Source of the DNA: Microthyrium microscopicum
Taxonomy: Eukaryota
Reading direction: 5' to 3'
Assembly: GCA_010405405.1 (NCBI GenBank)
Contig: MU004233.1
Coordinates: 499,067 to 563,066, forward strand
DNA: 64,000 bases
Positions 2,770 to 58,399 of the stretch are shown here, in pieces (within the stretch, counting starts at the first letter, position 1; the number at the start of each line of letters is the position of its first letter). A program made the translations under genes and the position numbers. The notes beneath the pieces were generated by a model. It worked only from the letters and a program-made list of their open reading frames with translations. It ran no database searches and was not told the DNA's origin.

Positions 2770-4675
2770 TCAAATAATAGTGATCTCCCTTCTTTCTTCA
2801 GCCACATTGATCCACTTATTTGTGTCAATCATTGCTATGCCAAACCTCTTGAACTGAGTTGACATCCCATCGGGTTGAAATAGAAGGAGCAAGATAGTTC
2901 TGCCTTTTGTGGCAATAAAACCGCCCGATCCAAGACGCAAGCCAAAGGCCGTGCCTTTGCTCCTTTGAATAGCTTCTTGGTCATCTTCAAATGCATCTGG
3001 GTAGAATTTAAGGTAACCAAACATACCAGAAAACCCAACAGATGGCTTGGAAACATCATCAGGCCACATCCCAATTACCTTACCTGTTGCCAGATAACCA
3101 GTAACGCAAATATGTCCTGAAGATACCGATCCCGTTGGATTGCTTGTAGTAGGAATGCAAACCGAGCTCTGAATATCGATATGATCCTTGTTTACCCAAC
3201 GGCTTAAATGCGACACTTTCCCAAGAACAGAGCACCAAGACCAGGAGGGTGCCAGGTACGATTGTGGTCGTCGACCATACTCAGCAACATGCCAACACAG
3301 ATCATGGATAAGGTTGTCTTTCCACAAACCAGCAAGATACTGACTTCCTCGAATGACTTGAAATCTTTGTGCTATGCCTGACAAAGCAGGTAGCCGATCC
3401 TGCTCATGGGTGATGTCTTTGCCAGAGTAAAGCTCAACAATGCGTTGCCAAGGTTGTGTGCACTCGCGTTCTTCGCGTATGACGTCTGCAAACATTGCTT
3501 TTATGCCGTCAAATCTGTATACGCGCGTACTGCAATAACACTGAAGTTCTTGATTGCATTGCCAGTAGAGCTCATGGTGCCCGCAAAAGAGGACCCTTGG
3601 AGAGAGCAATTGCTCTTGATAAGCCCAGGCTCGTCGGAGTAAAGGGTGCTCGTAATCCCATTCTTCCCGTCCGTCTCCCGGTGTCGGTGTCAGAAATCTA
3701 AATTGGTCATGGGCCACATACCGGTAACTGCGTACGAACAGGCCCGTAGAAGCTCCCAGTATCAACGGATCTGGTACTTCGATTTGACCAGCACTATGGG
3801 AAACTCGTCGGAATATTCCCTCTGTAGAGTTCACAGAGACAGTCGCGGAGATGGTCAAGAAGGAACCGCCATAGATGTTGGACATTTGCGGTGATTGATT
3901 AACCCAATCCTGAGTGTCATCCTGTATGATGCACAAACAATCAATCCACAAATACCGGATCCCCAAGTATCTTGTGAGTTTCACTGCGTCTCGAAATGTT
4001 GCCGGTAAAGTCAACCATGGAATCCCTGCAGCATGTTGTTGATAGTTGTTTTTCTTTGTCTGGAGGGGCAGATATATTTGGCGTCCATATCCAACTTTTC
4101 CGTGGCTAATAGTTTCACAAAACCCGCATTATCTGTACCAACGTCTAAAACCCGTGCCGGCATGAATTGCTCCCCTTGGCTGTTGCATTTTAGGTGATTC
4201 TGGGAACAAGCGTTGATCCAAGGCATGATCAAGTCGAGATTTGCTTTCGAACCAACGTAGAGTTGTTGCTTTCTCCCTAATGGGACTAAAGGCCAGGTTG
4301 TTTCATGACCTAGTTTGTCACCCAGAGGTCATGATATTCACCCAAATAATTTCCTTTAGGGAAGGACTTACTGGGAAGGGTAAACATTTGAAAGATCGGC
4401 TTATCGTTCATAGAGATGTCCCATAAGCCAGAATAGCCCTCGCGAATATCTACTGCACAATCGCTATCTTGGTCAACCTTTTTTGAGAATAGTCTAATAG
4501 CTTCCACCAAGATGGTACAAAATTGGCAGCCTTGAGCAGAAGTCAACTTAAGCTCCTTGAGCCCTACTTCTGTTGTATTAGTTTCCTGGTCCAATTGTCG
4601 GTAGTATGGACAACTATTTGAGTCATGACCTCGATATTCATTTGACTCCATGTCCAATGGCTCTGAGTAGAGCAT
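2770..4675 (-). pseudogene. Heterokaryon incompatibility (HET-domain) gene, apparently frameshifted
   Basis: Three track ORFs form one HET gene: N-terminal GCQFC, WINAC..H..C, PARVLDVG, then LPATFRDAV..TR.LGIRYLWIDCLCIIQDD, M..IY, RAWAYQE..LSPR, DRLPALSGIA and APSWSW. Near 4065-4075 the frame reading DAKYIC shifts to the frame reading PLQTKKNN..GIPW, and the conserved LSHxWG motif is missing. Confidence 0.7.
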
Positions 4676-5145
4676 TCGTGTGTTCTAAGAAGCCATCAGT
4701 GTTTGCTCTCCCGCTGATATCAGAGCTAGAGGCTTATGCTACCAGTGCCGTGTAGACTGCGCCCTTAAGCTTTCACTTCCTTCCACAGTCGCTTGTCTTC
4801 GAAAGAGTATTAGTCTTGTGACTTTCTCCCCAACCTTGACTTAGCCGCGTGATGCATGTGACTAGTGGAGGCGTAGCTTGGCGTAGTTACCGCGTACCGC
4901 TGCCAAGTCCTTGCTGACCAGTTGCTGACTAGATTTACGCCCTCGCACTTTAGCAGCCTGGATGACCGTCAATACGACGCGACTGCGAGATCTCAGACAA
5001 AATATCTACCTACATAAAATACCAAACAGCCATGGTACTGTATGTGTTCACCTGGGCTCCAGCTCTGCGCGCGGATCGAGTGCACCAAACTGTGTAGATG
5101 CCGCACTAGCACTCTGTGACGACACTGTCGAGTGAGGAATCGAGG

Positions 5146-6758
5146 ATGATTCATCGAAATGGGTCAGCAAGCAAAGCTTGTCACAATTGTCGTCAAAATC
5201 GCCGGAAATGCGATCGCTCGGTTCCTACGTGCAATAAATGCCACTCCACCAGGCAAGAATGCCTTGGCTATGGGAAACTTTTGCAGTGGACCAACAGTGT
5301 TGCAACTCGCGGGAAGATGATGGGCAAGAACTTTTCAGCTGCCGGAACATCGCAATCAATTGGTGGTCCTGGTTTTATCAAGATCTCCAAGCAAAGTCAA
5401 GCGTTTTTGTCTTCGACATTAAGGTCAAGTTGGTGTTTACAACCCAGCGATCCCCCTTTCAGCGACCTGAGCAAGACATCAAGATTCTATTTGTCCTATT
5501 GTAAGCACAAACGAAAACTGCCTCATAGTTTGTGCCACTGATAACTTATAATACCAAAGATGATTCACAGGTCTGCAAAGATCTTGTACTTCAAGATGTA
5601 CACGAGCATAATCCATTCCGAGATCTCTTATCTCTCACTGGCGATTACTTGGTCTTGCGAGAAATAATCATTGCGAACTCTGCACTTCATTTTGCAAACG
5701 TAACGAAAAAGGGCACGTTGAAATGTAATATCGGATCGGCTTCGCCTTCAGAGGCGTATAAAGATGCTCTAGTAGCCAAACAACAAGCTCTGCGCTTGCT
5801 ATCTGATGCTTTGTCTAGTGGTGATTTTAGAAACTCGGCTATCATCCTCGCCTCAATGATGCTTTTTATCAAGTTCGAGCTTTTGGACTCGGGTAGAAAT
5901 GGCTGGAGGTTTCATACAGAAGGTGCCCGACAACTCATGGTGTACCTACGCGACAACGGGAAACCAGATCTGCCTGCTCTTTACAATTTAAAGCACATTC
6001 TGATATCGAATTGCACAATGTAAGGACCTCCAGTAAGTCATACAGTTACCAAAATTCTAAATCGAAACAGATATGACATCCTTGGCACTACTTTAACTGC
6101 CTCAGCGTTAACGAGGAGCTCAGATATCGCTTTGCTCAACATAGCCTCGAAGGATATTGACGAAGATATGGCCAATGGCTGTCTGTCCTGTCCGCCGTTG
6201 CTACTTCAAGTCATTCGCGATGTATCCCGCTTTTCACAGTCAACCAGCGAATCCAATATGATTGAAAACAACGCTATCCAGCTCTTATCGGTGGTGGATG
6301 CATTCAATCCATATGCCTGGGCAAGCTCCCTACAGAAGATTTCCACGTCATTCGACCTAGACAAACGTGCTCATATAGGTTGCGCATACAAGGAAGCAGT
6401 GAAGATCTATATCATTCGAGCTACGAGCGCGGCCAATTCGCCTGCAATTCATTCGGATTCGCTTGAAGATCTTGTGTCCGAAATTATTCTCCATTTGACC
6501 CCTGTCCCACCGGAGGACTCCTTTTTCAAGGCAACTTGCTGGCCTTCATTCATGGCAGGAGCCGAGACCAATGATCCTGCCCAACGCAAATGGGTTTTAA
6601 GCCGTCTGGAAACTGGTTTAAATACTCTTCCCTGGGGATTCCTCTCAAGTGCTGTTGATCTATTGCCTCTCGTTTGGGACTATAAGAGTCAGTATGAACC
6701 AGGACCGGACTGGTTGATTCATCTGAAGCTCTCGGATAATGACTGGCTCATTGCATGA
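5146..6758 (+). CDS. Zn(II)2Cys6 transcription factor with fungal-specific TF domain
   Basis: ACHNCRQNRRKCDRSVPTCNKC..C binuclear cluster followed by L.W.NSVATRGKM; C-terminal WPSFMAGAE. Predicted introns 5501-5559 and 6020-6070 (GT..AG) join the three ORF segments in frame. Confidence 0.9.
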
Positions 6759-7965: not shown

Positions 7966-10277
7966 ATGCCAAAGATTAGCAGCAGGGGTCCCGCCTTTGG
8001 AAGAAAGAGAAAGGCTCCGGCAAAGCAGCCAACTGCTGGTATCAGAACCTCGAAGCGACTTCAAAAGGAAGAGATGCGGGTAGCAGCACTAGCATCTGCA
8101 TCGTCTACCACAAATGTGTCAGAACTCCAATTGTGCTGCTCCTATTGCACTCGCAATGGGCTTGGAGATATAAGTGCTTATGTTATAATCGAGTCGATAA
8201 ATCGAGATGAATTGCGCCATATTCTGCACAATATGAATAATTCAGCTTGCAACTCTTGTGAGCTTTTGGGCGGTGCCATACGCATGACCGACCTCCTGCC
8301 AGACAGAGAAGGAATTGGGTCTGGAGATCTCAACTCATTTGCCCCATTTAAAATGACGACGTACAAGGGGAAGCTTGTGATTAGCGATTCGCATAAATCA
8401 TACGACTCCGTGGTAGGTGTAAACTGTCCAAGTACAATCAATAATACTCATGGCTTATCATAATACAGCTTCTCGACACTAATCACGGCGACAATCCCAT
8501 CACCATTCCAGAATCGATCGACTTCGCCGCTCCTATAGCCTGGCTCGAGCATTGCAAAAGAAATCACGAGAAAGGTTGCGGTCAACGAGACGTTGCGCTA
8601 CGACACTTGACGCCAATAGATGTCATCCTAGTTGACGTGAATAGAGACTGTTTGACGATGAGTACAACTGCCTCTACATACTTTGCCTTGAGCTACGTCT
8701 GGGGTGGTACGGAGATTGCAAAGACAACCATGAATAGTCAGGCTGCCTTCAGGCAACCTGGGTCATTGAAAGATGGATTAACCTTGCCTAAAACTATATC
8801 CGACGCAATGTTGTTGACCAAAAAGATGGGAGTGGGGTATCTTTGGGTGGACTGTCTTTGTGTCGTACAAGATTCTCCGAACAAACACCAAGAAATCGGT
8901 AATATGGATATCGTGTATTCGCAGGCTGAGCTCACGATCGTAGCCGCCAATGGAATGGACGCCGACTCCGGGCTACCTGGTGTTCGACCAAAGACACGCC
9001 GGGAAACAGTCGCGTCTAAGATCCAGGGACCATACTTCTTAAAAAGACAGATGCCAGTGGATAAGCCCAGCATTTTTGATCAAACTACGTATAGTACTCG
9101 TGGATGGACATTCCAGGAGCTGACTTTATCAAAGCGAGTACTTTTGGTTACGAACAATCAACTCGTATTTCACTGCGACACCACAAGATGTTCGGAATCA
9201 CAGTCGGGAGAAGAGAGTCACCGTAATGGAGAAGTTGGTGCTGGCATAATTGATCTGCGGAATAAGAAAAGTTCAACTCGAAGCAATATTTCCATTCTGC
9301 AGTCATACTTTGCAATGGTCACGGAGTACTGCAAGAAGCGACTAAGCTACCAAGCAGACATTGAAAATGCCTTTGCTGGACTGGCTTCCATCCTACAAGA
9401 ATGGTGTGGGGAGACTCCGGTCATCCATGGAATGCTGTCTAGCCTTTTCGGCCATTCGATGATGTGGTTTTTCGATACTCATCAGCATCTGTTTAGCGCC
9501 TACTCTCTGACTGAAAGAGGGAAGAGAAGAGACGGTTTCCCATCGTGGTCTTGGACCGGCTGGATCGCCTGCTACAGCAACTTGAACAGTGACTCAAACC
9601 CAGAATTGCCAGTTCAGTCACTAATTGATAATGTCGAGATAACGATCTATAGTGAACGTTATATATCATCGGAGTCTTTAAGCATCGCAGACAAATCATT
9701 CATGAGGGAGGGCGCGGTTGGGACTGGACAGCAAATACAGGTCAACTTGGAACCTACGCAGTACAACTCGAGTGTCGGTTGTTCGAGTACCCTAGCATTT
9801 GATGGAGAGCGAACGGAGTGGAAAAACTTCGCAGTTAAAGGCACAACTGCTCATAATGCAACATTTGCCTTCGCACGCTCCGGGAAAACACTGGAGTGTG
9901 GTTTCCTTTCCGTAGCGCCAGAGGCAGAGATTTGTCACGAGATATATGAATCAGCAACAGATCCACTATCAGAGGCTGATTGCGGTTGGAGTTTAGTGCG
10001 ACTCTATCATTTGCGGATGGCAAAAGAGGCTCAATTTGAGGGCCTCCAGTTTACATTTGAAAGAATTGAGAAAAACTCTGAAGGTCTTGAGAGCGGTTTC
10101 GCTGAGAGGTTTCAGGAGCGACTACAGGCAACTGATCTGTTATTTGTTTTGCTCATTAGACGCAATGGTCAACATTGGGAGCGAATAGGCTCGGGTGTGA
10201 TGTTCCAGAAAGACTGGCCGTCGACTAGCAAACGAGCCAAGGTTCGAGCATATCGCGAGAGAATAGTGCTTGTTTGA
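7966..10277 (+). CDS. HET-domain protein
   Basis: YFALSYVWGG, LPKTISDAM, YLWVDCLCVVQD, MDIVYSQAELTIVAA.G.DA.SGLPG, TRGWTFQE and FPSWSWTGW. Predicted phase-0 intron 8413-8468 joins exon 7966-8412 to the long ORF. Confidence 0.88.
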
Positions 10278-19119: not shown

Positions 19120-19926
19120 CTAGACATCAGTGCCAGCAGTGTCCAAGATCCCGCCAACTGGTGCAGCAAGAGTTGGCAGTCCAAGGGCTGTGACGAGGCC
19201 GGCAACATCAGGGCTCAAGTCGTTGAGAAGTTGACGTTTCTTCAAGTCAGTTCCAGCAGTGTCGAGAATTCCGCCGACTGGTGCGGCAATTGATGCTAGA
19301 CCAAGAGTTGTTACGAGGCCGGCGACGTCGGGGCTGAGATCGTTGAGGAGTTGACGCTTCTTGAGGTCACTGCCGAGTGTGGTGACAACACCGCCGACAC
19401 TTGGTGATAGCGTGCCGAGACCGAGACCAGCGAGCAGACCGGCAACGTCGGGGCTGAGATCGTTGAGAAGTTGGCGTTTCTTAAGGTCACTGCCGAGTGT
19501 AGTGACAACACCGCCGACGCTTGGTGATAGCGTGCCGAGTCCGAGGCTAGCAAGCAGGCCAGCAACGTCTGGGCTAAGATCATTGAGCAGCTGTCGCTTT
19601 TTTAGGTCGCTGCCGAGTGTAGTTACGACGCCGCCTACTGATGGTGATAGCGTGCCAAGTCCAAGACCTGCTAGAAGGCCGGCGACATCAGGGCTCAAGT
19701 CGTTGAGGAGTTGGCGTTTCTTGACGTCGTTGCCGAGGGTGGTTACAATGCCGCCTACGGAAGGTGATAGCGTGCCGAGTCCAAGACCTGCGAGAAGGCC
19801 TGCAACATCTGGGCTGAGGTCGGTGAGGAGTTGGCGTTTGTTGTTCTCTGGTTGAGGGTTTGCTACTGGAGCAGCGATGGCAGCTGTGGCCAATGAGGCG
19901 ATTGTGATTGATTTGATGAAATGCAT
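19120..19926 (-). CDS. Secreted Kex2-processed repeat protein (KEP): signal/pro region plus six ~40-aa hydrophobic repeats
   Basis: Signal-peptide-like MHFIKSITIASLATAAIAAP and pro-segment ending NNKR, then six units of consensus QLLNDLSPDVAGLLAGLGLGTLSPSVGGVVTTLGSDL separated by KKR (31+5x40+37=268 aa). The 120-nt DNA repeats differ largely at synonymous positions in this frame. Confidence 0.9.
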   Translation of the reverse strand: MHFIKSITIASLATAAIAAPVANPQPENNKRQLLTDLSPDVAGLLAGLGLGTLSPSVGGIVTTLGNDVKKRQLLNDLSPDVAGLLAGLGLGTLSPSVGGVVTTLGSDLKKRQLLNDLSPDVAGLLASLGLGTLSPSVGGVVTTLGSDLKKRQLLNDLSPDVAGLLAGLGLGTLSPSVGGVVTTLGSDLKKRQLLNDLSPDVAGLVTTLGLASIAAPVGGILDTAGTDLKKRQLLNDLSPDVAGLVTALGLPTLAAPVGGILDTAGTDV

Positions 19927-22900
19927 TGTGAAGTAGGGAATATGATAGTAGATGTAAGAGGTCTTGGGGTAGAAGAGATATGGAAGATCTTATTGGAGTA
20001 GATGATGGAGTTGGAAGTATTGGTTGTTGATGAGATTGGTATTTCGAGCAGTTTGGGTCGTCTTATATACACCTGCTTGATGCTTTCTCGACGTGACAGC
20101 ACATGTTCTTCATTCTTGGACAGAATAGAACCATCGTCATCTTCGGATACACCGTTCTTGAGATCGACAATGTAACTGTTGAGTTGTGGATGTTGAAGCA
20201 CGATCGACAGCAGCGATTTTGACAGCTTCCTTGCCTCAGCTGAAGCCATTCACAGTTGGTTGTTTCTTAGCCTTGACACATGCAACGTTGAGACCTTGGA
20301 CTCTGCATCTCTGGTCATTTTGCTGGTTCAGTGTGAAGATCGTTCTTAACTTTCATGGATGATTGGAGTCTTGGAGATGTGGTAGCTGAAGATCGGCATG
20401 TGTTTGGCCCGACCTGTAGGCAACACTGATGGATATCACGGCATAGAAGTCTCGGAGGTCGGATAATTTCTTTGAATCCTGAATCTGATGATGGGACCTA
20501 CTGTGCAATTACGTCAAAATGCTTTGGGAGAAGGTCAAGTATAGTCGCATGGCCTTTTTGACGGCTGGCTGGTGTGAGACCATCGGAGGAGAATGTGGTG
20601 GATGGCACGCTGGCTAGGAAGTCATTATACTCAGATATCCAATGTAGTGGTTGTAGTAGGACTACAGGCAGTCGAACGAACGCATGTCCCTGCTTGGTAC
20701 AACGGTAAGGCTCTACCTATACTAACGACTAGCTCGTTGAGATCTCCGGCTTGCGGTACGGTAGCCAGATGCGGGCGGGATCGACGAACGCTCCCATCCA
20801 CCGAGCTTGTGAGAATATCGTGACACCAGCGAAGCAGTAAGCGTGGGTGATGAATATGTCCGTCTTGACACTGCACGTAAAGCAACCGAGGTCGTCTTCA
20901 ACAGACTGAAGTTTCTAGATCTTGGTGGGATTCGAAGTCGTCGAACACTCGCAACGCATTCGTAGATGTTGAATTCGAGGCTCATCACTCGAGTACAAAA
21001 TCATCAGTGGGGGAAGAAAGAGAACCAGGGACATGGCTCAGGCCCGGAAAGGGTCCGCGATTATGTTCAATCGGAAATACCTCCGATATGGTTGCACCAC
21101 GATCTTGAAGATCTCCAAGATCTGCGCTTGCGCCAAAGCATACCAAGATTTAACGCGCTTTCTTCCAGTTAGACCCTGCGATTTCAACGACGGCTCCTTG
21201 ACGGTGCACTTCCATCTCGGTTGCCCATACTGCATAAGACCTTCGCTTAGTGACTGAATGTATTGGGCCACTCTGCATGTACTTCAATGGATCTAAGACA
21301 ACCACGATCCTGGTTCCCCAGCTCCTTTGGAACTGCCGTTGACTAAGACGACGAAAAACATCGTCATATTTGGCAGTTTTGGTTCCTTCCAAGAAACTTG
21401 ACCGTCGGTGTGGGACAGAGCCGCATATCCGACAGGCGGATGGCTGGCTCAAAGTGGAACCACTAGACGAGTATCCATGCTCCCTGTCTAACTTCAACCC
21501 AACTCTTGCCAACTGACTACCGTAGACACATGCGAGGATTACATTCGAAGGTGATCTGAACGAATGATAATCTGGATCAAGAGAAAGGAACACACTCCAT
21601 CAAGTCAGTGTTTCACATATTCTACGGGATTAGGAGTATTCAGGAAGCTCATGTCGTTGAAATCAGAAGATTCCAATGCTAGTATCAAAAACCTGCAGCA
21701 TAAAAAACGCCCGAGTTTGAGAAGCGAAAAAAAACTTGCGCCCTAGCGCACGCTCCGTTTCGCGGTCTACAAAAAAGAGGAGGGTGGAGTGTCCAGAAAG
21801 TGGCAGGTGTAAAATGGCGCCATGCAGGCGTGCTCAGATCTTCCCTGTGGACGAAGCTTGGAACTTGCAAGATACCTTCAAAGATCGAAACTCATGACTT
21901 GCTTCGATTCGGGACTTGGCTGGGAATCGTGAGTTCATCGAAGCGAGTTATCTTCGTGCAATTGGCTGGGAAGGACTTTGGCGATCCCAATGTGACATGG
22001 TGTGGAGGACTTGGAACTTTGGAAGTATGTTGCATCGTGATCTAGGAGCGTAGTGTAAGTCAACGAAAAAGATAATACCTTTTAAGTCATTGTAAAGACC
22101 GAGAGCGGAAGATGATCAGAGTCCTCAGTCCTATCATAACTGCAGGGTAAGAGACCTTATCTGTTCAAAAGCTATGTCGGCGAGTTTCGCAAGAAGCAGC
22201 CCAATCTTGATTTTTGATAGAACCTGACAACTTGTTTCGGAAACTGACTTTTGATGAGCTATTGGAAGGCAATATACAACCAAAGATAGCCAGTCCACTG
22301 TTTCCTCGTGAATAACTTCAAAGTGAAGTTCCACGTTGTCGGGAAACTTCATTTCTTCCTTGTCTTGGTCACTGCCTTCTGAATTGTACCTGAGCTCGTA
22401 CAGACGCACCTTCATCAAAACCTTAAAAAGAGTGTGTGACTAGAATGGTCTTCAGGAAGCCAATCTAAGCTTCCTGTCAAGGGACCAAAACTGGCTTGCC
22501 TGATTCTACCCGTCAAGTGCAGAGTTGCTGGAAGCACTTCTTTGCAAGCAAAGTCTTATACTCCGAGCCAGACATGGACGAAATCCTATTGATAGAGGGA
22601 ATACCATGATTTAGCCAAGCGAGGGAGTGTATATTCGGAAAATCTATCTCACATATTGCAACCGGTTGACAAAATAAATGGCGTGCTCCCATCAACTCCG
22701 GTGTCTCCCATCGCGCACTAGGAAGAGAATATGCTTCAACCCCCAGCGCAATCGATAGAGAATCAACGGTTCTACGCAATTACAGGGTAATAAAGTACTC
22801 GGTCAAGAAGCGTAGCAGATGGTAGCCACTACACTTGATGGGAGCGCGCCATTCGTTCTGTCGGCTAGTTGATATTGGTTTTGCCACATAATGCTGTGAT

Positions 22901-27053: not shown

Positions 27054-28431
27054 ACCGGTCCAGAATGGGTCATCAAACATTTACTCAAGTGAGGCTCAAG
27101 ATCAGGGTTCAGATCAACTCACATCACGAAATAGATCTGCTCCATGACGGACCATTACTCGGGCCATTTTCTAACCCAGTTCTGATGGCTGGGATCGGTC
27201 ACAGGGTACCTTTCTCGAACAAGCCGCTTCCCACCAACTGGATTTGGCCCCAACCTGAAGTAATTCGACGTCTAACAAATTCAAACGAATAATTTCGAAT
27301 ACCCTTTGCAAGTGGATCGTTCTTCAACTTATACCCTAAATAGAGACAGAACTGACCCCACAGTAAAAGGTTATTTGTTGCTGTTTTTGGGTTTCTCGAG
27401 CAATTGTCTCCTTTGGCTTCTGGAAGTATGCGCAGCCTGCGAAACGCCAATGGCAAAGAGAGGTGTTTGAAAACACTAGCCCGTGGCTCGAAACGTTCAG
27501 ACCTTCCAAGATCTTCTTTAAGAGCCTCCAGGAACCGACAGGGGTAGGGTGTTGTGATTGGTGTGGAGACCTGTCAATATGCACATCATTGTTTTAGGTT
27601 CGCAGATTCAAGACAACTTCGCTACACCTTCAATGTACTGCGGATCTCGCAGCTTGCAACACCAAAAAATGTTATTAACTTTGCCGATTTGACAAAAACC
27701 CGGATTTCATGTGATTTGCGAGTATGGGTAGAGTTATTCCTGGTATGCTGATTTTGGGAGATCGATCATGGTTGAGTTGGGGGTCAGAGTTGGTTGTTTC
27801 AGTGCTTATGGGATATTTGGGCGGGAGGAATTGCGGGAGGAATGGCGGGAGGAATAACTCTATATTTCGAAGAGTCTAGTTGATTCTCACAGGCAACGCG
27901 AAATACTTTCTGCGAGTATGCTAACAGCAGTGTGGTTGACAACTTCGGCGTTGCATCCATACTACTCTACTCGAAGCTTGATGCCTTCAACAACCAAATA
28001 CGTCTTCACCAGCAATCAACCATGTTAATTTGAGAGGCTCATCAAGTAACAAAATGTTCTCCGCTTTCATGGATTAAACTAACATTTAATAGGTATTATG
28101 CAGATTTACAGGCCACAGTTTTGCACTAGCCAGGAACGCTGGATACTTCCGCAACGAACCCACTGTTTCGACTCCCGCATGTCACTTCTTGGCCGCATGA
28201 TCGACAACGGAGAATCGGACAACTAACTAACAACCATTAAGCAATTTTCGCTTTTCATACATGTATCCTGCATACAACATGTCGGAGAAATATAAATTCT
28301 GTATCAACGCCGGTCTTTTCTGCCCTTATCCACCAGATCGCTGATATCATTCCTTCTTCAGCATCTGTTCGAACTTCGCCTTTAAACACACAACCCACAC
28401 TCTTTCAGCAACTACAATCACTAAGCTCACC

Positions 28432-30823
28432 ATGGTTCAATTCAACGCCATTGTTCTGGCTGCGGCTATTGCAGACTCAGCATTAGCTGCTCCGGCTTTC
28501 GGTCCTTTCGGCTTGAACTTTCCTGGCCTTGCGTTCCCAGCGTTTAATCCAGCTGCAGCAAGTGGACAAAATTCACCAGCTACTGGCAATACACCGGCTA
28601 CTGGCAATGTACCAGCTTCAGGCAATGCACCGGCTATTCCAAAGTTCCCCAGCTTTCCCAAATTTCCAAAGCCGGCGGGCGCGCAAGGGGCCCCGCAAGC
28701 TTCAATAGCAGCAAATCCAAATGTCCCGCTCGGAACAGCAACTCCTAACGTTGTGCCAGCGATTCCAAATGGTCCAGCTGGTGCCTCTCCGAAAAGCCCC
28801 AAGGTACCAGCTGGTGCAGCTCCAAATGCGCCTCTTAATGGCCCAGCGACTGGAGTCTCGCCTTTGAGCCCAACAGTCCCAAAGATTCCAGCGGGCGGCG
28901 CCAATCCACGAGCTTCATCGTTTCCAAAGATTCCAGCAGGCGGCACTGCTCCCAAGATCCCAGCAGGCGGCTCTTCTCCTAAGATTCCCGCCGGTGCTGG
29001 TGTGGGTGGAGGAGCTGGTGCACCAACACCTCAAGTTTCGACGCTCCCTACTGTGCCAATTCCAGCTTCAAACCCATCGCCAGATGCTCCGCTATTCCCA
29101 AATATTGCGGGTGGTGCCTCGCCAAATGTTCCAGCAGTCCCGAATGTGCCCGCCGGAGGAGCATCTACCAACGGCCCAGCCACTGCTGGAGGAGCTTTGC
29201 CAAAAAGCATCATCCCTAAGGCAGGCGGAGGAGTCGGTGGAGGAGCCGGATCAGCAACAACGCCCTTTGCCATTCCCAAGCTGCCCAACTTCCCCGGATT
29301 CAACGGCCTGAGCTTTCCATTCAAGAAGGTAGCGCAAGGCGCCCAGATGTTCACAGCTTCCGATGTTTCTGATGGAAAGTGTGCGCCAGTCACTCTCATC
29401 TTTGCCCGTGGAACTGGCGAAATTGGCAACTTGGGAACCGTTGTTGGACCACAGCTCGTTGCTGCTTTGACGAAGGTTTTGCCACTCGATTCGCTCGCAG
29501 TTCAAGGAGTCAATTACTCCGCGTCTGCGGCCACAGCGGCTGTCAACGCGTTCAATCCTAAGGGTGCGGCCGGTGCTGTCTCCATGGCGTCTTTGATCAA
29601 CAATGCTGCTGAGGCTTGTGCTGATACCAAGGTCGTTCTTGCTGGGTATACGCAAGGAGCGGATATTGTTCGTGGTGCTTTGATGAATCTGGGACAAAAC
29701 AACAGTGTTGCCGTAAGTATTTCTGCAACGACCAAATGGGGTGCTTGCTAACATCGATTAACAGGCTGCTGTGACATTTGCCGACCCATTGGCCAAGCAG
29801 AAATTCGTCAACATTGATCCAGCAAAGACCAAAGTTAGTGGTTCTTCGGGTGCTGGAGCTATTGGCCTCGGAAGTGCAATTCATGTTTCTGGTGGTATCG
29901 CCAAGTCCATTGCAGCGGATGTTGCATTCATACTCAAAGCTGTTGGCATCACTGCCGCCAATGCAACCATTCCTGCCGCCAGCCCTGTGACGGGCGCCCC
30001 TCCAGCAGATGCTTCTCCAGCAGTTTCTGCCGTTCCTGCGGCATCTGGTCCTGGTGTTGGGGGTGGAGCCGGTGCTGGCTCTCCTGATGCTTCCTCGCCC
30101 ACCGATCTTCCACCCGCAGATGCGTCTCCCATAGCTCCATCTCCAGCAGCTCCAACCGGATCTGGTGAAGGTGCTGGTGCTGGCTCTCCAGATACCGTGC
30201 CCGCCAACGCACCACCCGCTGGTGATGGCTCTTCGGACCCTACCGATCCATCTACTCCAGACGCTGGTAGCGGCCTTGGAGGCGGCCTTGCATCTCCTGC
30301 CACTGGCGACCCAGCCGGCGGCCTCTTCCCTACAGGTTCTACCCCAGGTTTGGTACCAAGTCTTCCACCTCTGCCACCACTGCCAGGTCTCAACCAAAGC
30401 TTGCCATCAATCCCCGGCCTACCAACTGGTAACAGCCCTCAGCTCTCAGGTCTTTTGGGGTTCTTGTCATCTCTTGGACTCAAGAAGTCTGCCAAGTATC
30501 GCCGCTCAATCACTCGAGCTGGCTCAAGTCATCCATTGATTCCAAACATTACCCCAAGTGCCGGAGCAAAGAGCCCAATTGCCAGTGTCCCAATCGACGG
30601 AGGCGCTACAATTCAAGGAAGTGCTCCGCCAGCTTCCGCACCAGGATTGGTGCCAAGTATTCCTCAATCTCCTGCTGTGCCAGGCTTGAACCTTACACTC
30701 CCCACCATTCCCGGCCTTCCCACCGGCCACGCTCCCGAGATCTCTGCGGCCGGTCTTCTTAGCTTTTTGCAATCATTGGGAGTCAAGAAGTCACCAAAAT
30801 ATCGTGCCCCAAGCCGATCTTAA
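28432..30823 (+). CDS. Secreted cutinase-like protein with long Pro/Gly/Ala-rich N- and C-terminal extensions and an atypical active site
   Basis: Signal peptide; cutinase-fold motifs CAPVTLIFARGTGEIGNLG.VVGP, VQGVNYSA, AC.DTKVVLAGYTQGA and AAVTFADP. Intron 29713-29764 (GTAAGT..GCTAAC..ACAG) joins the two ORFs in frame. Confidence 0.85.
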
Positions 30824-54600: not shown

Positions 54601-57600
54601 ATTATATTATTTAATTAGGTTCTATAAGAAATAAGTAAAAGTTGCTCTAAAAGCTATAAGTATCCTATAAGATATATATTATAAGAATTATAAGTATATC
54701 TAGTATTTTTTAATATTTTTATAATTATATTATTTAATTAGGTTCTATAAAAAGTAAGTAGAAGTTACTCTAAAAGCTATAGATATCTTATAAAGCGTAC
54801 GTTATAAGTATTATAGATATATAATAATATATTATAGTTATTTAAATTAATTATATAGAGTATATTAATTATATTATTCTTATTATCTTATTATCTATTA
54901 TATATGCTATAATATAAATATTAATATTAGTAAATAGTTAGTTATAAATAAGTAAAGTTAGAAAATATATAATATCTATATAGCTACTATATATATTATA
55001 CTATCTTCTACTTTATTCTCCTAATCTAATAGTTATTCTAGTATACTAAGCTACTATATTATATTATCTTTAGTTTATCTATTTCTCTTACTACTAAAAC
55101 TTACATTCTTATTAACTATAGCTCTACTAATACTAGAACGCTATCTACTTTATTCTTTAAAAGTATTTAGAAAATAGTAATGAATAGCTTATATCCTTTT
55201 TTAGCTTTAGTACTAGCTTTTAATAGGCTATATTAAATAGAAACTACCTTTACTATCGTACTTACTAATATATATATATATTAGCCTTTACTATATATAT
55301 TTAGGTTATACTATTAAACTAAAGAATAGAAACGCTAGATTAAGAGATAGTTATTAGTTTAATTAATAGAGAAACTAAGAAGGTAACTTAATAGTAAAAG
55401 CGTAAGAGTATAATAAGTATTATTACTCTTAATATAGTAGTAGGTAATAGCTAAATTAGCGTAAGTATATATAGTATATAGTTTAACGCTAGAGAATAAT
55501 CTATTATATTGTATTTATATAGTAATATTTTAGCTACATATAGCTAGTAATAATTAGTTCTACTATTTAGTAATAATAGTAGGTATAAATATCTAGGCTA
55601 AAAGAATGTATATTATTACTAATAAACAAGACAGCCTAGAATAATATAAGGCTAAGAGATAGGTAGAATAAGATAAGTTTATATCTTATAAGTACTTATA
55701 ATAAGTAGTAAAATATAAATATTATAATCCCTTAAATACTTTATAAAGACTTAATTAGAGTATATACTCTTACCGCTAGACTATAGTATATAAATTTATA
55801 ATTAAACTAGACTATTATAATTCTTAAGGAGTAGAAGGGCTAGACTATATAGTTCTTAAGAAGTAGAAGGTTAGACTATATAGTTCTTAAGAAGTAGAAG
55901 AGTCTTTAGTAAAAAATACTAATATTAACTTAAGTTATTAGGTTTCTATTAGTAACGTTAACTTTAAAGTCTATAACTAAATAATTTTTAAAAGAATAAT
56001 AAATATTTACTACGCATAGTTAGTAAAGATTAGTTATACTATAAATACTTTATAGTATAATTATTAGGTTCTAAACGTAATAAAGTCTATAAATATATAG
56101 TACTATAGAGTTCTTATAGATATTAACGTATATTAATTAAATATTATTATAGCGTTTAATATTTAAACGTTATAGTGTCTTTAGATAGCTTTATTAAATA
56201 ACTTTTAAGCTATATAGAATCTAAGTAGCTACTTATACTAGAGACTTATAAGTTTAAGGCCTTCTACTTAACTAAGATTATAAAAGTAAAGTTCTCTTAT
56301 TTATTAACTAGAGTTACGCCTTTTCTAATAAGGTTCTAGGGTTAGGATAAAGTAATTATATAATTAGCAAAATATATTAATTAATAGATTTAACACTACG
56401 TTAGTAAGTAGATATCTACTTAGGATAAGGCTAAAATTATTTTAGCTTACGCTTATTACTCTTAAGTCTTATCTACTAGTATTATATTTATCTATATAGG
56501 CTATTTCTAATAGGCTATAAGAATAACGTACCTTCTTATAAAACATCCTACTAATAAATAGTTTTATCTTTAAAGTATAAAAGGAAATATTTATTATTAG
56601 AATAAAATACTAGTACGTAAATCTAGTTATTATAGCTAATAAGTATTTTAATTAGTATTCTTCTACTATCCTAAAGCTTAATAAGCTTATTATAACTAAT
56701 AGTAGGAATTTAGGTAGGCTAACTATATAAAGTTATAGGAATTAGGCTTAAAGTAATAAATAGTAGTAGATATTAGTAGTTAGTAAAGTTTAGAATATAG
56801 AAAGTTAAGTAACTTAAAGATTTTGCTATAGAATATTAGAGATTATAGTTAGATTATAATAATATAAGTATATCTACTCTACCCTACCTTATCTATATAT
56901 ATCCTACCTTATCTAGATATAGCTAAATACTTTGTAATAATCTTTTTAGAGTTAGCTTATATTAAACGTTATCTACTAAGATTATAAATACTTAAAGTTT
57001 AATTATTAGCTCTTTATAAATTTTATTTAAAAAATTATTAGCCTATAATAAGTAGGTATAGAACGTAGCCTAAAGATACTATATATTTTAAGTAAGGCCT
57101 TTCTACTTATATTAGGATAGCTATATATTATCTATTAATAAAATAAAGAGTTATAAGTAACCTAGTAAGCTATTACTAGTTTATATACTTAATTATATAC
57201 TAAGTAGCTATCTATTAGATAAGGTTACTCTATAAGTAGTACTTAGGTTATATTAATAATAATATAAGTTTATAATATTAAGGAAAAGGTTAGATCTAAA
57301 TAGNNNNNNNNNNNNNNNNNNNNNNNNNNNNNNNNNNNNNNNNNNNNNNNNNNNNNNNNNNNNNNNNNNNNNNNNNNNNNNNNNNNNNNNNNNNNNNNNN
57401 NNNNNNNNNNNNNNNNNNNNNNNNNNNNNNNNNNNNNNNNNNNNNNNNNNNNNNNNNNNNNNNNNNNNNNNNNNNNNNNNNNNNNNNNNNNNNNNNNNNN
57501 NNNNNNNNNNNNNNNNNNNNNNNNNNNNNNNNNNNNNNNNNNNNNNNNNNNNNNNNNNNNNNNNNNNNNNNNNNNNNNNNNNNNNNNNNNNNNNNNNNNN

Positions 57601-58399
57601 NNNNNNNNNNNNNNNNNNNNNNNNNNNNNNNNNNNNNNNNNNNNNNNNNNNNNNNNNNNNNNNCTATTCTATAGCTAATTATTATTTAAAGTTTACTTAT
57701 ACTAGTTTATATACTACTACTATTTAGGATTATATTCTATTTATATATTTCTTAAATAATACAATTTTATATAATATATATATACTTTAGTATAGAGATT
57801 TAGTTTAACTTATATATCTTAATTACTAACTTATACTATAATATATAACTATTACTTACCTTATTGCTACTCTACTTATTTATCTAATAGCTTATTTTAA
57901 ATATAACGCTATTTAACTATTATTCTAAGTAGTTAAATATATAATATAAAACTATACTAGAATATATTAATTAAAGCCTAACCTTCTATTACTCTATTTA
58001 TTTACTATATTAACTTAAAGTAATACTTATAATACTACCTTAAGTAAGAAAGATTAATACTATATATGCTAAGCTATACTAATAGCGTAAAAGAATAATA
58101 TAAGGAAGTTAAGTTAATATTAACGTTAATATAGACTCTTATATTTAAGACGCTAGTTCTATTAACTAAGTCTATAAGATCTTACTTACTATTATAAGCT
58201 TAGAAGAAAGTACCTATCTATTATGTCTACTTCTAATATTATAATAAAAGGTTAAAGACTTACTTCTAATTTTAATTATATTATAACGACCCTTTTATAA
58301 TAAATAGCTAGTAGTTATACTTATATATCTTCCTATCTAAAGCTAAATAAGGCATATAGTAGTAAGTACTTAATACTAACTACTTTATTTTATACTTCT

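What the first reader, a model, noticed from the sequence alone, without database searches (positions are those of the whole stretch)
19120..19926. Secreted precursor predicted to release six 37-aa Gln-initiated hydrophobic peptides of two sequence types
Seen: a signal peptide, a short pro-segment, and six repeats each preceded by KR and starting with Gln. Repeats 1-4 have the core LLAGLGLGTLSPSVGGVVTTLGSD and repeats 5-6 have LVT.LGL....APVGGILDTAGTD. The peptides have no Cys or aromatic residues and are Leu/Gly-rich with a few Asp. Established: Kex2 cleaves after KR and Kex1 trims C-terminal basic residues. Ustilago Rep1 repellents and Candida Ece1 (candidalysin) share this architecture, and N-terminal Gln can cyclise to pyroglutamate. 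Inference: this may encode an uncharacterised family of surface-active, amyloid-like or membrane-active peptides made in a 4:2 ratio. I see no DUF3328/UstYa tailoring gene in the window, so linear peptides are more likely than a dikaritin-type RiPP.
Basis: partly seen in the sequence, partly recalled or inferred. Interest (0 to 1): 0.85.

Follow-up and report, generated by a model that had tools for sequence, protein, structure and literature searches.

The report
Fungal precursor of six secreted peptides
This is a real fungal gene whose secreted product is built to be cut into six nearly identical 37-residue oily, acidic peptides; it belongs to a widespread peptide family that has not been described, and the job of the peptides is still unknown.

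Summary
Window 19120..19926 (minus strand) is one intact 268-codon ORF. It encodes a signal-peptide-like start, a 13-residue pro-segment ending KR, then six 37-residue units, each starting with Gln. Units 1-5 are followed by KKR; unit 6 runs to the stop. Units 1-4 are one type and units 5-6 another. The units are under strong purifying selection: units 2 and 4 differ in 21 of 37 codons, all synonymous. The window matches the Dothideomycete Microthyrium microscopicum. Relatives exist: 35 representative proteins share the short-unit, basic-linker layout. Their linkers vary but always end in Arg. The last unit often ends exactly at the stop codon. First units lacking KR follow X-Ala/X-Pro dipeptides, so all routes yield the same Gln start. 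The same module also occurs uncut in about 300-residue four-module proteins of Aspergillus and Penicillium and in long Pseudogymnoascus arrays. No Pfam family, solved structure or paper covers it, and no DUF3328 gene lies nearby. So it is a Kex2-processed repeat protein (a known class) carrying an undescribed peptide family. Processing is well supported by comparison but not shown. Function is inferred only: a self-associating surface peptide is my first choice, with a signal or membrane-active role as rivals.

The parts
19120..19926 (-). Complete coding sequence of the precursor (268 codons plus TAG stop at 19120-19122), single exon
   Evidence: tblastn finds no second copy elsewhere in the window: every hit with E<1e-3 lies within 19123-19968
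19873..19926 (-). Predicted signal peptide, residues 1-18 (n-region with K5, hydrophobic core, AIA|AP cleavage site)
   Evidence: Heuristic only. The ..A-A-P-[VI].. stretch aligns across relatives
19834..19872 (-). Pro-segment, residues 19-31, ending in Lys-Arg
19723..19833 (-). Unit 1 (type A, 37 aa), followed by KKR at 19714-19722
19603..19713 (-). Unit 2 (type A, 37 aa), followed by KKR at 19594-19602
19483..19593 (-). Unit 3 (type A, 37 aa), followed by KKR at 19474-19482
19363..19473 (-). Unit 4 (type A, 37 aa, same peptide as unit 2), followed by KKR at 19354-19362
19243..19353 (-). Unit 5 (type B, 37 aa), followed by KKR at 19234-19242
19123..19233 (-). Unit 6 (type B, 37 aa), ending directly at the stop codon
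20062..20069 (-). TATA-box-like TATATAAG, 136 nt upstream of the ATG. The start codon sits in a CACAATG context
   Evidence: Read directly from the sequence. Not tested

Best explanation
The ORF is a real gene of a filamentous ascomycete (the window matches Microthyrium microscopicum). It encodes a secreted Kex2-processed repeat protein (KEP). Proposed route, all inferred: signal peptidase cuts after about residue 18. In the Golgi, Kex2 cuts after each Lys-Arg, six sites, with Leu or Val at P4 at the five unit junctions. Kex1-type carboxypeptidase removes the trailing K-K-R. The result is six linear 37-residue peptides, four of type A and two of type B. Each has an N-terminal Gln that can cyclise to pyroglutamate, 3-4 Asp, no basic residue, and a Leu/Gly-rich hydrophobic centre. 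The unit is one module of an undescribed family widespread in Pezizomycotina. The same module also occurs covalently linked in larger secreted proteins. The role I think most likely is an abundant extracellular peptide that associates with itself or with the cell wall or a hydrophobic surface, working like the Ustilago repellents. My odds: real gene 0.97; processed into the 37-residue peptides 0.8; self-associating or surface role 0.3-0.35.
For: Real, selected gene: 21 of 21 codon differences between units 2 and 4 are synonymous, and the KKR linkers are kept with varied codons. dN is far below dS. There is a TATA-like box and a good start context. Organism: the neighbouring Exo5 ORF is 100% identical over 100% of its length to a Microthyrium microscopicum protein.

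Family: an exhaustive phmmer search of 1.84 billion representatives gave 72 hits at E<=1e-3 and 35 at E<=1e-10. Sorted by eye, these are 35 short-unit basic-linker proteins, 1 variant of that layout, 16 four-module proteins, 5 long arrays and 15 unrelated long proteins.

Processing, from the 35 short-unit relatives:
- All 29 junctions between successive units carry a basic linker ending in Arg: KKR, KRR, KVKR, KAKR, KPR, KAR, or KR-spacer-[KR]R with spacers that vary.
- Gln follows the site directly in 22 of 29 junctions.
- In 16 of 29 proteins the last unit ends exactly at the stop codon, where Kex2 plus Kex1 would end the internal units.
- Nine of the 22 first units that could be examined follow the signal peptide through a run of at least two X-Ala/X-Pro dipeptides (for example AP-VP, AP-VA, AP-IA-SP, AP-VA-DP). 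This is the Ste13 signature described in PMC6339444 (passages). It again exposes the same Gln.
- Kex2 prefers an aliphatic P4 residue (PMC8528282, passages), which the window's L/V-K-K-R sites have.

Module conservation: across 48 units from 31 relatives, Q1 L2 L3 D5 L6 S7 P8 V10 L13 L17 G18 L19 T32 G34 D36 V37 are strongest.

Self-association or surface role (indirect only): the module works in covalent arrays in relatives. 22 of 26 four-module proteins have one unit-end-plus-dibasic site at the midpoint, and 25 of 26 end in the unit-end motif. The precursor carries six copies, which suggests bulk production. V10, L13, L14 and L17 form a conserved i, i+3, i+4, i+7 face, while positions 11, 12, 15 and 16 vary and are polar in relatives. 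AlphaFold2 gives each unit as helix, break at LGLG, helix (mean pLDDT 72.5). Rep1 of Ustilago has the same precursor logic and yields peptides of 34-53 aa (PMC3133707, passages).
Against: No expression or peptide data exist for this gene. The exact protein is absent from the 15-billion-protein collection, so it is probably unannotated or modelled differently in the deposited genome. SignalP, TMHMM and ProP were not available. In the AlphaFold2 model the helices run straight through the KKR junctions and pTM is only 0.30, so the sites are not predicted as exposed loops. The window's own peptides are poor facial amphiphiles: the Eisenberg moment is at most 0.44 and about 0.02-0.1 over the central 13 residues. 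No aromatic or amyloid-typical features were tested. Several relatives carry Ste13-type dipeptides, which Le Marquer et al. take as a hint of hormone-like peptides and note are absent from Rep1. There is no sequence or fold link to repellents, hydrophobins or any solved structure.
Confidence: 0.4

Rival explanations
1. The released peptides are diffusible signals (hormone, pheromone-like or quorum-type peptides) read by a receptor of the fungus itself or of a partner organism.
For: Multi-copy KEP precursors make the alpha-type pheromones. X-Ala/X-Pro dipeptide runs precede the Gln in several relatives, and PMC6339444 argues that KEPs with this Ste13 signature are good hormone candidates (passages). 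The unit is conserved over its whole length with precisely fixed ends. A protected pGlu N-terminus is common in peptide hormones (recalled).
Against: At 37 residues with a glycine-rich hydrophobic centre it is unlike the 9-15-residue fungal signalling peptides described in the KEP surveys. The same module occurs in uncut tandem arrays in other fungi, which fits a structural or binding module better than a ligand. The window's own internal junctions have no Ste13 dipeptides.
Confidence: 0.2
2. The peptides are membrane-active toxins used against competitors or hosts, working like candidalysin from Candida Ece1.
For: The processing logic is the same: Kex2 then Kex1 acting on a secreted polyprotein (PMC6339444, section 17). 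The peptides have hydrophobic Leu/Gly-rich helices with small-xxx-small spacing (G12, G16, G18, G20). The insignificant Foldseek matches are mostly transmembrane helices.
Against: Net charge is -3 to -4 with no basic residue, which is unusual for lytic peptides. The uninterrupted hydrophobic stretch is only about 13 residues, between D9 and S23/P24. There is no similarity to any toxin family in Pfam or the PDB. The best Foldseek E-value is 4.2. The host fungus is a leaf-surface saprobe, not a known pathogen (listing).
Confidence: 0.15
3. The protein is not cut into units. It is secreted whole as a helical repeat protein of the wall or surface, and the KKR triplets are just surface residues.
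For: AlphaFold2 models continuous helices across the junctions. Relatives with four modules carry only one dibasic site, and the long arrays carry none of the KR type, so the module can work uncut.
Against: The linkers vary in length and sequence but always end in Arg. Spacers are bracketed by two dibasic sites. The last unit stops where trimming would stop. Signal-peptidase plus dipeptide routes converge on the same Gln. KKR is kept under synonymous codon change. None of this is expected for a mere surface loop.
Confidence: 0.1
4. It is the precursor of a post-translationally modified peptide (RiPP) whose tailoring genes lie elsewhere or were missed.
For: 22% of catalogued KEPs have a DUF3328 gene nearby (PMC7329392, abstract). 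Small intron-split genes could escape an ORF-based scan.
Against: No DUF3328 or other recognisable tailoring domain was found in ORFs of at least 70 aa from 12.8 to 28.5 kb, or at least 120 aa over the window. The units are 37 residues long without Tyr, Trp, Phe, His or Cys. The conserved termini fit a linear product.
Confidence: 0.05
5. It is a non-coding minisatellite that happens to be open in one frame.
For: Tandem 120-nt repeats also leave other frames partly open (antisense ORF 19355..19855).
Against: Differences between repeats sit overwhelmingly at third codon positions of this frame and are synonymous. There are protein-level relatives in several fungal classes.
Confidence: 0.01

Closest known systems
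Kex2-processed repeat proteins (KEPs) as defined by Le Marquer et al. 2019 (PMC6339444) and Umemura 2020 (PMC7329392)
   Same: It has a signal peptide, a pro-segment, at least three near-identical tandem units between KR sites, and repeats covering most of the protein. Two unit types in one precursor is also documented: 77 of 1193 KEPs.
   Different: The peptide itself is not among the conserved motifs named in the main text of PMC6339444 (section 10). The species and the named relatives I could check are absent from the tables held for both papers. At 37 aa the unit is long for a KEP peptide.
Ustilago maydis Rep1 repellent precursor
   Same: It is a secreted precursor with repeats cut at Kex2 sites into peptides of 34-53 aa. 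These act outside the cell, on the hyphal surface, as amphipathic amyloid fibrils (PMC3133707, passages). The size class and precursor logic are the same.
   Different: No sequence relationship was found by any search here. Rep1 is from a basidiomycete, has 12 repeats and yields one large 229-aa product. Surface activity and amyloid formation are shown for Rep1 and untested here. Relatives of the window's protein carry Ste13-type dipeptides, which Rep1 lacks.
Candida albicans Ece1 / candidalysin
   Same: It is a secreted polyprotein cut by Kex2 and trimmed by Kex1 into hydrophobic helical peptides (PMC6339444, section 17).
   Different: Ece1 peptides are non-identical and only one is the toxin. 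The window's peptides are near-identical, acidic and lack basic residues. There is no sequence relationship.
Four-module secreted proteins of Aspergillus, Penicillium and Canariomyces (e.g. PYH98037.1, KAB8235783.1, CDM36895.1, KAK4113000.1) and the long Pseudogymnoascus arrays (KFY98618.1)
   Same: They carry the same module, LLx-LSPxV-xxLxxGLGL-...VG..V..T.G (E 1e-25 to 1e-14). They have signal-peptide-like starts. Most have one unit-end-plus-dibasic site at the midpoint and the unit-end motif at the C-terminus.
   Different: In these proteins each module is preceded by an extra strand-like segment and only every second module is followed by a dibasic site. The predicted products are about 110-120 aa, not 37. 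All are annotated as hypothetical. One A. alliaceus member is labelled 'Hydrophobic surface binding protein A-domain-containing' in UniRef, but Pfam did not reproduce that label.

Membership tests
KEP (Umemura 2020 criteria, PMC7329392 section 13) | N-terminal signal peptide for ER entry (SignalP 4.1 in the paper) | tested here: inconclusive
   The hydropathy and -3/-1 heuristic fits: K5, hydrophobic residues 6-19, AIA|AP. SignalP itself was not available.
KEP (Umemura 2020 criteria) | At least 3 tandem repeats of at least 8 aa between Kex2 sites (KR, KK, RK, RR), none longer than 100 aa | tested here: met
   There are six repeats of 37 aa. Each is bounded by KR on its N side and KKR or the stop on its C side.
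KEP (Le Marquer 2019 criteria, PMC6339444 section 24) | At least four fragments on cutting at KR/RR, at least three of them similar, repeats at least 15% of the protein, no transmembrane helix by TMHMM | tested here: met
   Cutting gives seven fragments, six of them similar. The repeats cover 222 of 268 residues. The TMHMM filter could not be run, so that one sub-criterion is untested.
KEP | Actual cleavage by Kex2 (and trimming by Kex1) in the secretory pathway | not testable with these tools
   There is comparative support only: linkers, stop-codon position and convergent Gln N-terminus in relatives. Kex2 genes lie outside the window.
Dikaritin / ustiloxin-type RiPP precursor | DUF3328 (UstYa) gene close to the precursor gene | tested here: not met
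   No DUF3328 hit was found among 28 ORFs of at least 120 aa across 1-43 kb or 34 ORFs of at least 70 aa in 12.8-28.5 kb. Small intron-split exons could be missed.
Dikaritin / ustiloxin-type RiPP precursor | Short core peptides with aromatic residues for cross-linking (the EDYXI-type core of ustiloxins and phomopsins) | tested here: not met
   The units are 37 aa with no Tyr, Trp, Phe, His or Cys.
Repellents (Ustilago Rep1) | Sequence relationship to Rep1 peptides | not tested
   No Rep1 sequence was on hand. Nothing annotated as a repellent appeared among the hits whose source names I saw (the 13 and the 30 proteins looked up). The library itself carries no names.
Repellents (Ustilago Rep1) | Peptides form surface-active amyloid-like fibrils on hyphae and are needed for aerial hyphae and attachment | not testable with these tools
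   This needs peptide chemistry and a knockout.
HsbA (hydrophobic surface binding protein A, Pfam PF12296; accession recalled) | Match to the HsbA profile | tested here: not met
   No HsbA hit at E<=10 for the window protein. None at E<=1 for 17 four-module relatives or for 5 more, including the A. alliaceus protein that carries that UniRef label.
Alpha-factor-type mating pheromone | Short repeated peptide (about 9-15 aa, usually with Trp/Cys/Pro-Gly core) after KR plus X-Ala dipeptides | tested here: not met
   The units are 37 aa without Trp or Cys. The internal junctions of the window protein have no X-Ala/X-Pro dipeptides.

The most novel reading that the evidence does not exclude
The 37-residue 'LSPxV-GLGL' module defines a Pezizomycotina-wide family of secreted, Kex2-released acidic peptides. 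These would be the ascomycete counterpart of the basidiomycete repellents: cysteine-free, hydrophobin-like surface or wall peptides made in bulk from polyprotein precursors. Both KEP catalogues missed the family because most members have only two units or have mis-annotated starts. The four-module and long-array relatives would be covalently linked versions of the same assembly.
Probability: 0.2. Interest if true: 0.7.

Novelty: new member of a known kind. Interest (0 to 1): 0.45.

Why it matters
KEPs are a recognised but functionally almost blank class. Only a handful (pheromones, repellents, candidalysin, RiPP toxins) have known roles. This case adds a peptide family that is conserved over its whole 37 residues in several classes of Ascomycota. 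Three independent maturation routes converge on the same ends, so the mature product can be predicted to the residue and tested directly with synthetic peptide and mass spectrometry. It also shows a blind spot of the catalogues. The gene seems to be missing from the deposited annotation of its own genome. A relative in a species that Umemura surveyed was not listed, apparently because its annotated start lacks the signal peptide. Most relatives have two units, below the three-repeat cut-offs. If the peptides prove to be surface-active, that would be a hydrophobin-independent way for leaf-surface ascomycetes to deal with hydrophobic cuticles. If not, it is one more KEP type.

Tried and rejected
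- Pfam on the protein gave only a DUF2523 score of 33.2 bits with no single stretch passing, plus noise. I read this as repeat-summed low-complexity similarity, not membership.
- Profile search of PDB sequences found 0 hits for the short-unit alignment. For the four-module alignment it found only a phage fibre protein at E 0.01.
- Foldseek of the AlphaFold2 model against the PDB gave a best E of 4.2, which is not usable.
- AlphaFold2 of a four-module relative reached mean pLDDT 53.8, too low to interpret beyond local hairpin-plus-helix hints.
- ESM Atlas searches gave no hit of 0.9 or more. The TPR-like structural neighbours had TM<0.5.
- Complex prediction with four copies of unit 2 returned 'no answer' (score 0.02, mark 0.32, controls not run). 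It is neither for nor against self-association.
- The search for homologous proteins with the alignment and lengths 'shorter' searched only proteins of 30-33 residues and found nothing. That search was wasted.
- Literature searches found no relevant paper for six motif strings (2 unrelated hits), for six locus tags (0 hits) or for six accessions (0 hits).
- In the supplements, motif strings and accessions were absent from the three tables held for PMC7329392. Those tables list accessions, not sequences.
- They were also absent from the four files held for PMC6339444. That paper's Table S2 is held only as a 1,644-character PDF, so the full KEP list could not be checked.
- Neighbourhoods of relatives could not be studied.
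Full report
**1. What is in the sequence**

Window 19120..19926 holds, on the minus strand, a single uninterrupted ORF from ATG to TAG of 268 codons. The stop-to-stop frame reaches only 21 codons further upstream and holds no earlier ATG.

The product starts with a signal-peptide-like segment: a Lys at position 5, a hydrophobic stretch at residues 6-19, and a small-x-small site AIA|AP after residue 18. This is a heuristic call; SignalP was not available. A 13-residue pro-segment ending in Lys-Arg follows, then six units of exactly 37 residues. Each unit begins with Gln. Units 1-5 are followed by Lys-Lys-Arg; unit 6 runs into the stop codon.

- Units 1-4 (type A) are 86-100% identical to each other.
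- Units 5-6 (type B) are 86% identical to each other.
- Type A and type B are 59-68% identical.
- The whole protein has no Cys. Its only aromatic residue is Phe3 in the signal peptide.
- Each unit has 3-4 Asp, no basic residue, 8-10 Leu and 5-7 Gly, with GRAVY about 0.8.

Only the strand was left unstated.

**2. More than chance, and under selection**

Tandem Repeats Finder reports a 120-nt period, 5.8 copies and score 491, with only 79% nucleotide matches. The DNA repeats have drifted while the peptides have not.

- Units 2 and 4 encode the same peptide yet differ in 21 of 37 codons, all 21 synonymous.
- Units 2 and 3 differ in 22 codons, 21 of them synonymous.
- Differences pile up at third codon positions.
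- The five KKR linkers are kept with four different codon spellings.
- Within type A, dN is 0.01-0.09 against dS 0.5-1.6.

This rules out a non-coding minisatellite. It shows selection on both the peptide and the basic linker. A TATATAAG box lies 136 nt upstream of the ATG, and the start codon sits in CACAATG (read). No second copy exists in the window.

**3. Where it comes from and what surrounds it**

The window is from a filamentous ascomycete. Pfam finds two HET-domain ORFs, a Zn2Cys6 transcription factor, Exo5, AICAR transformylase/IMP cyclohydrolase (directly beside the gene), a FUSC-like membrane protein, a cutinase-domain ORF, a peroxiredoxin, a GNAT, a catalase and a sulfite-oxidase-like protein.

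The Exo5 ORF is 100% identical over its whole length to a protein of Microthyrium microscopicum, and the next best hit is 61%. This is a Dothideomycete of the leaf-surface 'fly-speck' fungi (listing).

No DUF3328/UstYa or other recognisable tailoring domain was found among 28 ORFs of at least 120 aa or 34 ORFs of at least 70 aa between 12.8 and 28.5 kb. Small intron-split genes could be missed. Nothing suggests a gene cluster.

The exact 268-aa sequence is not in the 15-billion-protein collection, although the neighbour's protein is. The gene is therefore probably unannotated or modelled differently in the deposited genome. The ESM Atlas does hold the sequence.

**4. Relatives**

The word-indexed search found 13 proteins. 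The exhaustive phmmer search of 1.84 billion representatives found 72 at E<=1e-3 and 35 at E<=1e-10. I read all 72 and sorted them by eye:

| Group | Count | Description |
|---|---|---|
| Short-unit basic-linker proteins | 35 | Same layout as the window's protein |
| Variant of that layout | 1 | Two alternating units |
| Four-module proteins | 16 | About 300 aa (10 more came) |
| Long arrays | 5 | Module followed by L-K-T/A-R |
| Unrelated long proteins | 15 | At the weak end of the list |

Named members:
- Short-unit type: Paraphaeosphaeria sporulosa, Aureobasidium melanogenum and Xylariales sp. PMI_506.
- Four-module type: Aspergillus ellipticus, A. alliaceus, A. saccharolyticus, A. nanangensis, Penicillium roqueforti, P. 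psychrosexuale, P. glandicola and Canariomyces.
- Long arrays: Pseudogymnoascus.

Most short-unit relatives come from unnamed environmental assemblies. All named ones are 'hypothetical'. With six units, the window's protein has the most seen among the short-unit relatives; the next have four, though many records are fragments.

**5. Comparative evidence for the cleavage model**

I built a profile from the six window units and located units in all fetched proteins. I then examined unit boundaries in the 35 short-unit relatives.

(a) All 29 junctions between successive units carry a basic linker ending in Arg. The forms are KKR, KRR, KVKR, KAKR, KPR, KAR, or a KR-spacer-[KR]R arrangement with spacers of varying length and sequence. 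In the last form, two cleavage sites bracket a throw-away spacer, which is the hallmark of polyprotein processing.

(b) Gln follows the basic site directly in 22 of 29 junctions.

(c) In 16 of 29 proteins the last unit ends at the stop codon, exactly at unit position 36/37. That is where Kex2 cleavage plus removal of the trailing basic residues would end every internal unit.

(d) Where the first unit is not preceded by KR, it often follows the signal peptide through runs of X-Pro/X-Ala dipeptides (AP-VP, AP-VA, AP-IA-SP, AP-VA-DP). Nine of the 22 first units that could be examined show at least two such dipeptides. One relative also has KR-DP and another KSKR-SP before the Gln. X-Ala/X-Pro dipeptides are what the Ste13 dipeptidyl aminopeptidase removes (PMC6339444, passages).

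So three different routes all expose the same Gln: Kex2 alone, Kex2 plus dipeptide removal, and signal peptidase plus dipeptide removal.

The window's own sites read L/V-K-K-R. They fit both the dibasic rule and the P4-aliphatic preference of Kex2 (PMC8528282, passages). The KPR and KAR linkers of some relatives lack a basic P2. From memory Kex2 also accepts Pro-Arg, but I did not check this.

Across 48 units from 31 relatives, conservation runs over the whole unit. It is strongest at Q1 L2 L3 D5 L6 S7 P8 V10 L13 L17 G18 L19 T32 G34 D36 V37. Both unit types occur in other fungi. B-like units are the commoner, and a few relatives combine an A-like and a B-like unit.

**6. The wider family**

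In the four-module proteins, each module is preceded by an extra segment. 22 of 26 have exactly one unit-end-plus-dibasic site at the midpoint, and 25 of 26 end with the unit-end motif. They look like two-repeat precursors whose halves (about 110-120 aa, two modules each) would get identical C-termini after Kex2/Kex1. The Pseudogymnoascus arrays repeat the module up to seven times, each followed by L-K-T-R or L-K-A-R (an LxxR pattern). The module can thus act singly or covalently linked.

**7. Structure**

- AlphaFold2 on the precursor with the 26-sequence alignment gives mean pLDDT 72.5 and pTM 0.30. Helices break at the L-G-L-G centre of each unit and run through the KKR junctions. Each free peptide would then be helix-turn-helix.
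- A four-module relative modelled poorly (pLDDT 53.8), with hints of a hairpin plus helices.
- The PDB gave nothing by sequence or by fold (best E 4.2).
- In the window's peptides the hydrophobic centre (about residues 10-22) has almost no helical amphipathic moment. The polar and acidic residues sit at the two ends.
- In relatives, positions 12, 15 and 16 are often polar or charged while V10, L13, L14 and L17 stay hydrophobic. This is a packing face, suggesting helix-helix contacts.

**8. How it most likely works**

Shown by sequence and comparison: this is a selected gene for a secretory repeat precursor whose unit boundaries are defined by basic sites.

Inferred maturation: signal peptidase, then Kex2, then Kex1, giving six linear peptides (four A, two B) with Gln/pGlu-1 and a C-terminal Asp-Leu or Asp-Val. 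I put this at about 0.8.

The function is inference only. I rank the options as follows:

| Option | Probability | Main reasons for | Main reasons against |
|---|---|---|---|
| Abundant extracellular peptide that self-associates or binds wall or hydrophobic surfaces, like the repellents | about 0.3-0.35 | High copy number; module works in covalent arrays; conserved packing face; Rep1 shares size class and logic | No self-assembly shown; poor facial amphiphile |
| Diffusible signal | about 0.2 | Ste13 signatures in relatives; exact ends; Le Marquer's argument | Long, glycine-rich unit; uncut arrays in relatives |
| Membrane-active toxin | about 0.15 | Hydrophobic Gly-rich helices | Net charge -3/-4; only about 13 uninterrupted hydrophobic residues |
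| Uncut repeat protein | about 0.1 | Helices model across junctions | Linker, stop-codon and N-terminus evidence |
| RiPP precursor | about 0.05 | 22% of KEPs have a DUF3328 neighbour | No tailoring gene found; no cross-linkable residues |

**9. Comparison with what is known**

It meets the repeat and Kex2-site criteria of both KEP definitions. The signal peptide is supported only heuristically, and actual cleavage cannot be tested here.

It is not a dikaritin-type precursor, because there is no DUF3328 gene and no aromatic core. It is not an alpha-pheromone. It is not an HsbA-family protein: UniRef gives that label to one A. alliaceus relative, but Pfam did not reproduce it in any of 23 proteins scanned.

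It works like Rep1 and Ece1 at the level of precursor processing. Membership in either family is not supported.

The peptide family itself seems undescribed:
- It is not among the conserved motifs named in PMC6339444 (section 10).
- Motif strings, locus tags and accessions are in no paper of the library.
- Neither the species nor the six relatives' accessions I checked (five, one) appear in the tables held for the two catalogues.
- The relative in Paraphaeosphaeria sporulosa, a species Umemura surveyed (19 KEPs), is not listed. Its annotated start lacks a signal peptide.

Limits: Umemura's tables give accessions, not sequences. Table S2 of Le Marquer et al. is held only as a short PDF text. 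An entry under another accession cannot be excluded.

**10. Verdict**

The KEP reading is well supported by comparison, and the function is open. It is a new peptide family within a known class. That class already counts 838 types and 2560 singletons (abstract), so a new type is not in itself surprising.

What lifts it above routine is threefold. The module is conserved in several fungal classes. Three maturation routes converge on one N-terminus. The same module exists in cleaved and covalently linked architectures. Interest 0.45.

Noticed in passing
window 43000-64000: GC content falls from about 45-54% to about 17-28% for the last 21 kb, with almost no long ORFs. This is an AT-rich isochore of the kind left by repeat-induced point mutation in fungal genomes.
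   Followed up: no
window 57253-57727: Inside the AT-rich block, one stretch of about 450 bp is open in all six frames (six ORFs of 124-154 aa). It is presumably a stop-free simple or low-complexity tract.
   Followed up: no
window 19120-19926: The exact 268-aa protein is absent from the 15-billion-protein collection, although the neighbouring Exo5 protein of the same genome is present at 100% identity. The gene is probably unannotated or modelled differently in the deposited genome.
   Followed up: partly
P0209 / P0210 / P0022 (Paraphaeosphaeria sporulosa relatives): The annotated models start with about 45 residues that do not look like a signal peptide, ahead of a ..GAPVAEKR|Q.. junction. 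The three models also differ at the C-terminus. The likely mis-set start would explain why the protein is missing from Umemura's KEP list for that species.
   Followed up: partly
P0206 (Aspergillus alliaceus, KAE8396040.1): UniRef names this four-module relative 'Hydrophobic surface binding protein A-domain-containing protein'. Pfam gives no HsbA match at E<=1. The origin of the label is unexplained.
   Followed up: partly
window 28345-29751 (+): A 468-aa open frame has a cutinase domain only in its last 120 residues or so, about 8.4 kb from the peptide gene. A long N-terminal extension or unrecognised introns are possible. It is interesting for a cuticle-dwelling fungus, but no link to the peptide gene is shown.
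   Followed up: no
window 2770-4128 (-) and 8445-10277 (+): Two HET (heterokaryon incompatibility) domain ORFs flank a Zn2Cys6 transcription factor that is split over three frames (5110-6758), presumably by introns.
   Followed up: no
window 19355-19855 (+): A 166-aa antisense open frame runs through the repeats. It is a by-product of the repeated codon structure and has no support as a gene.
   Followed up: no
P0015 / P0020 (Pseudogymnoascus): The long-array relatives interleave the module with two other repeat types. Nearly every repeat ends in a single Arg followed by Gln or Asp. This hints at processing at monobasic LxxR-type sites.
   Followed up: no
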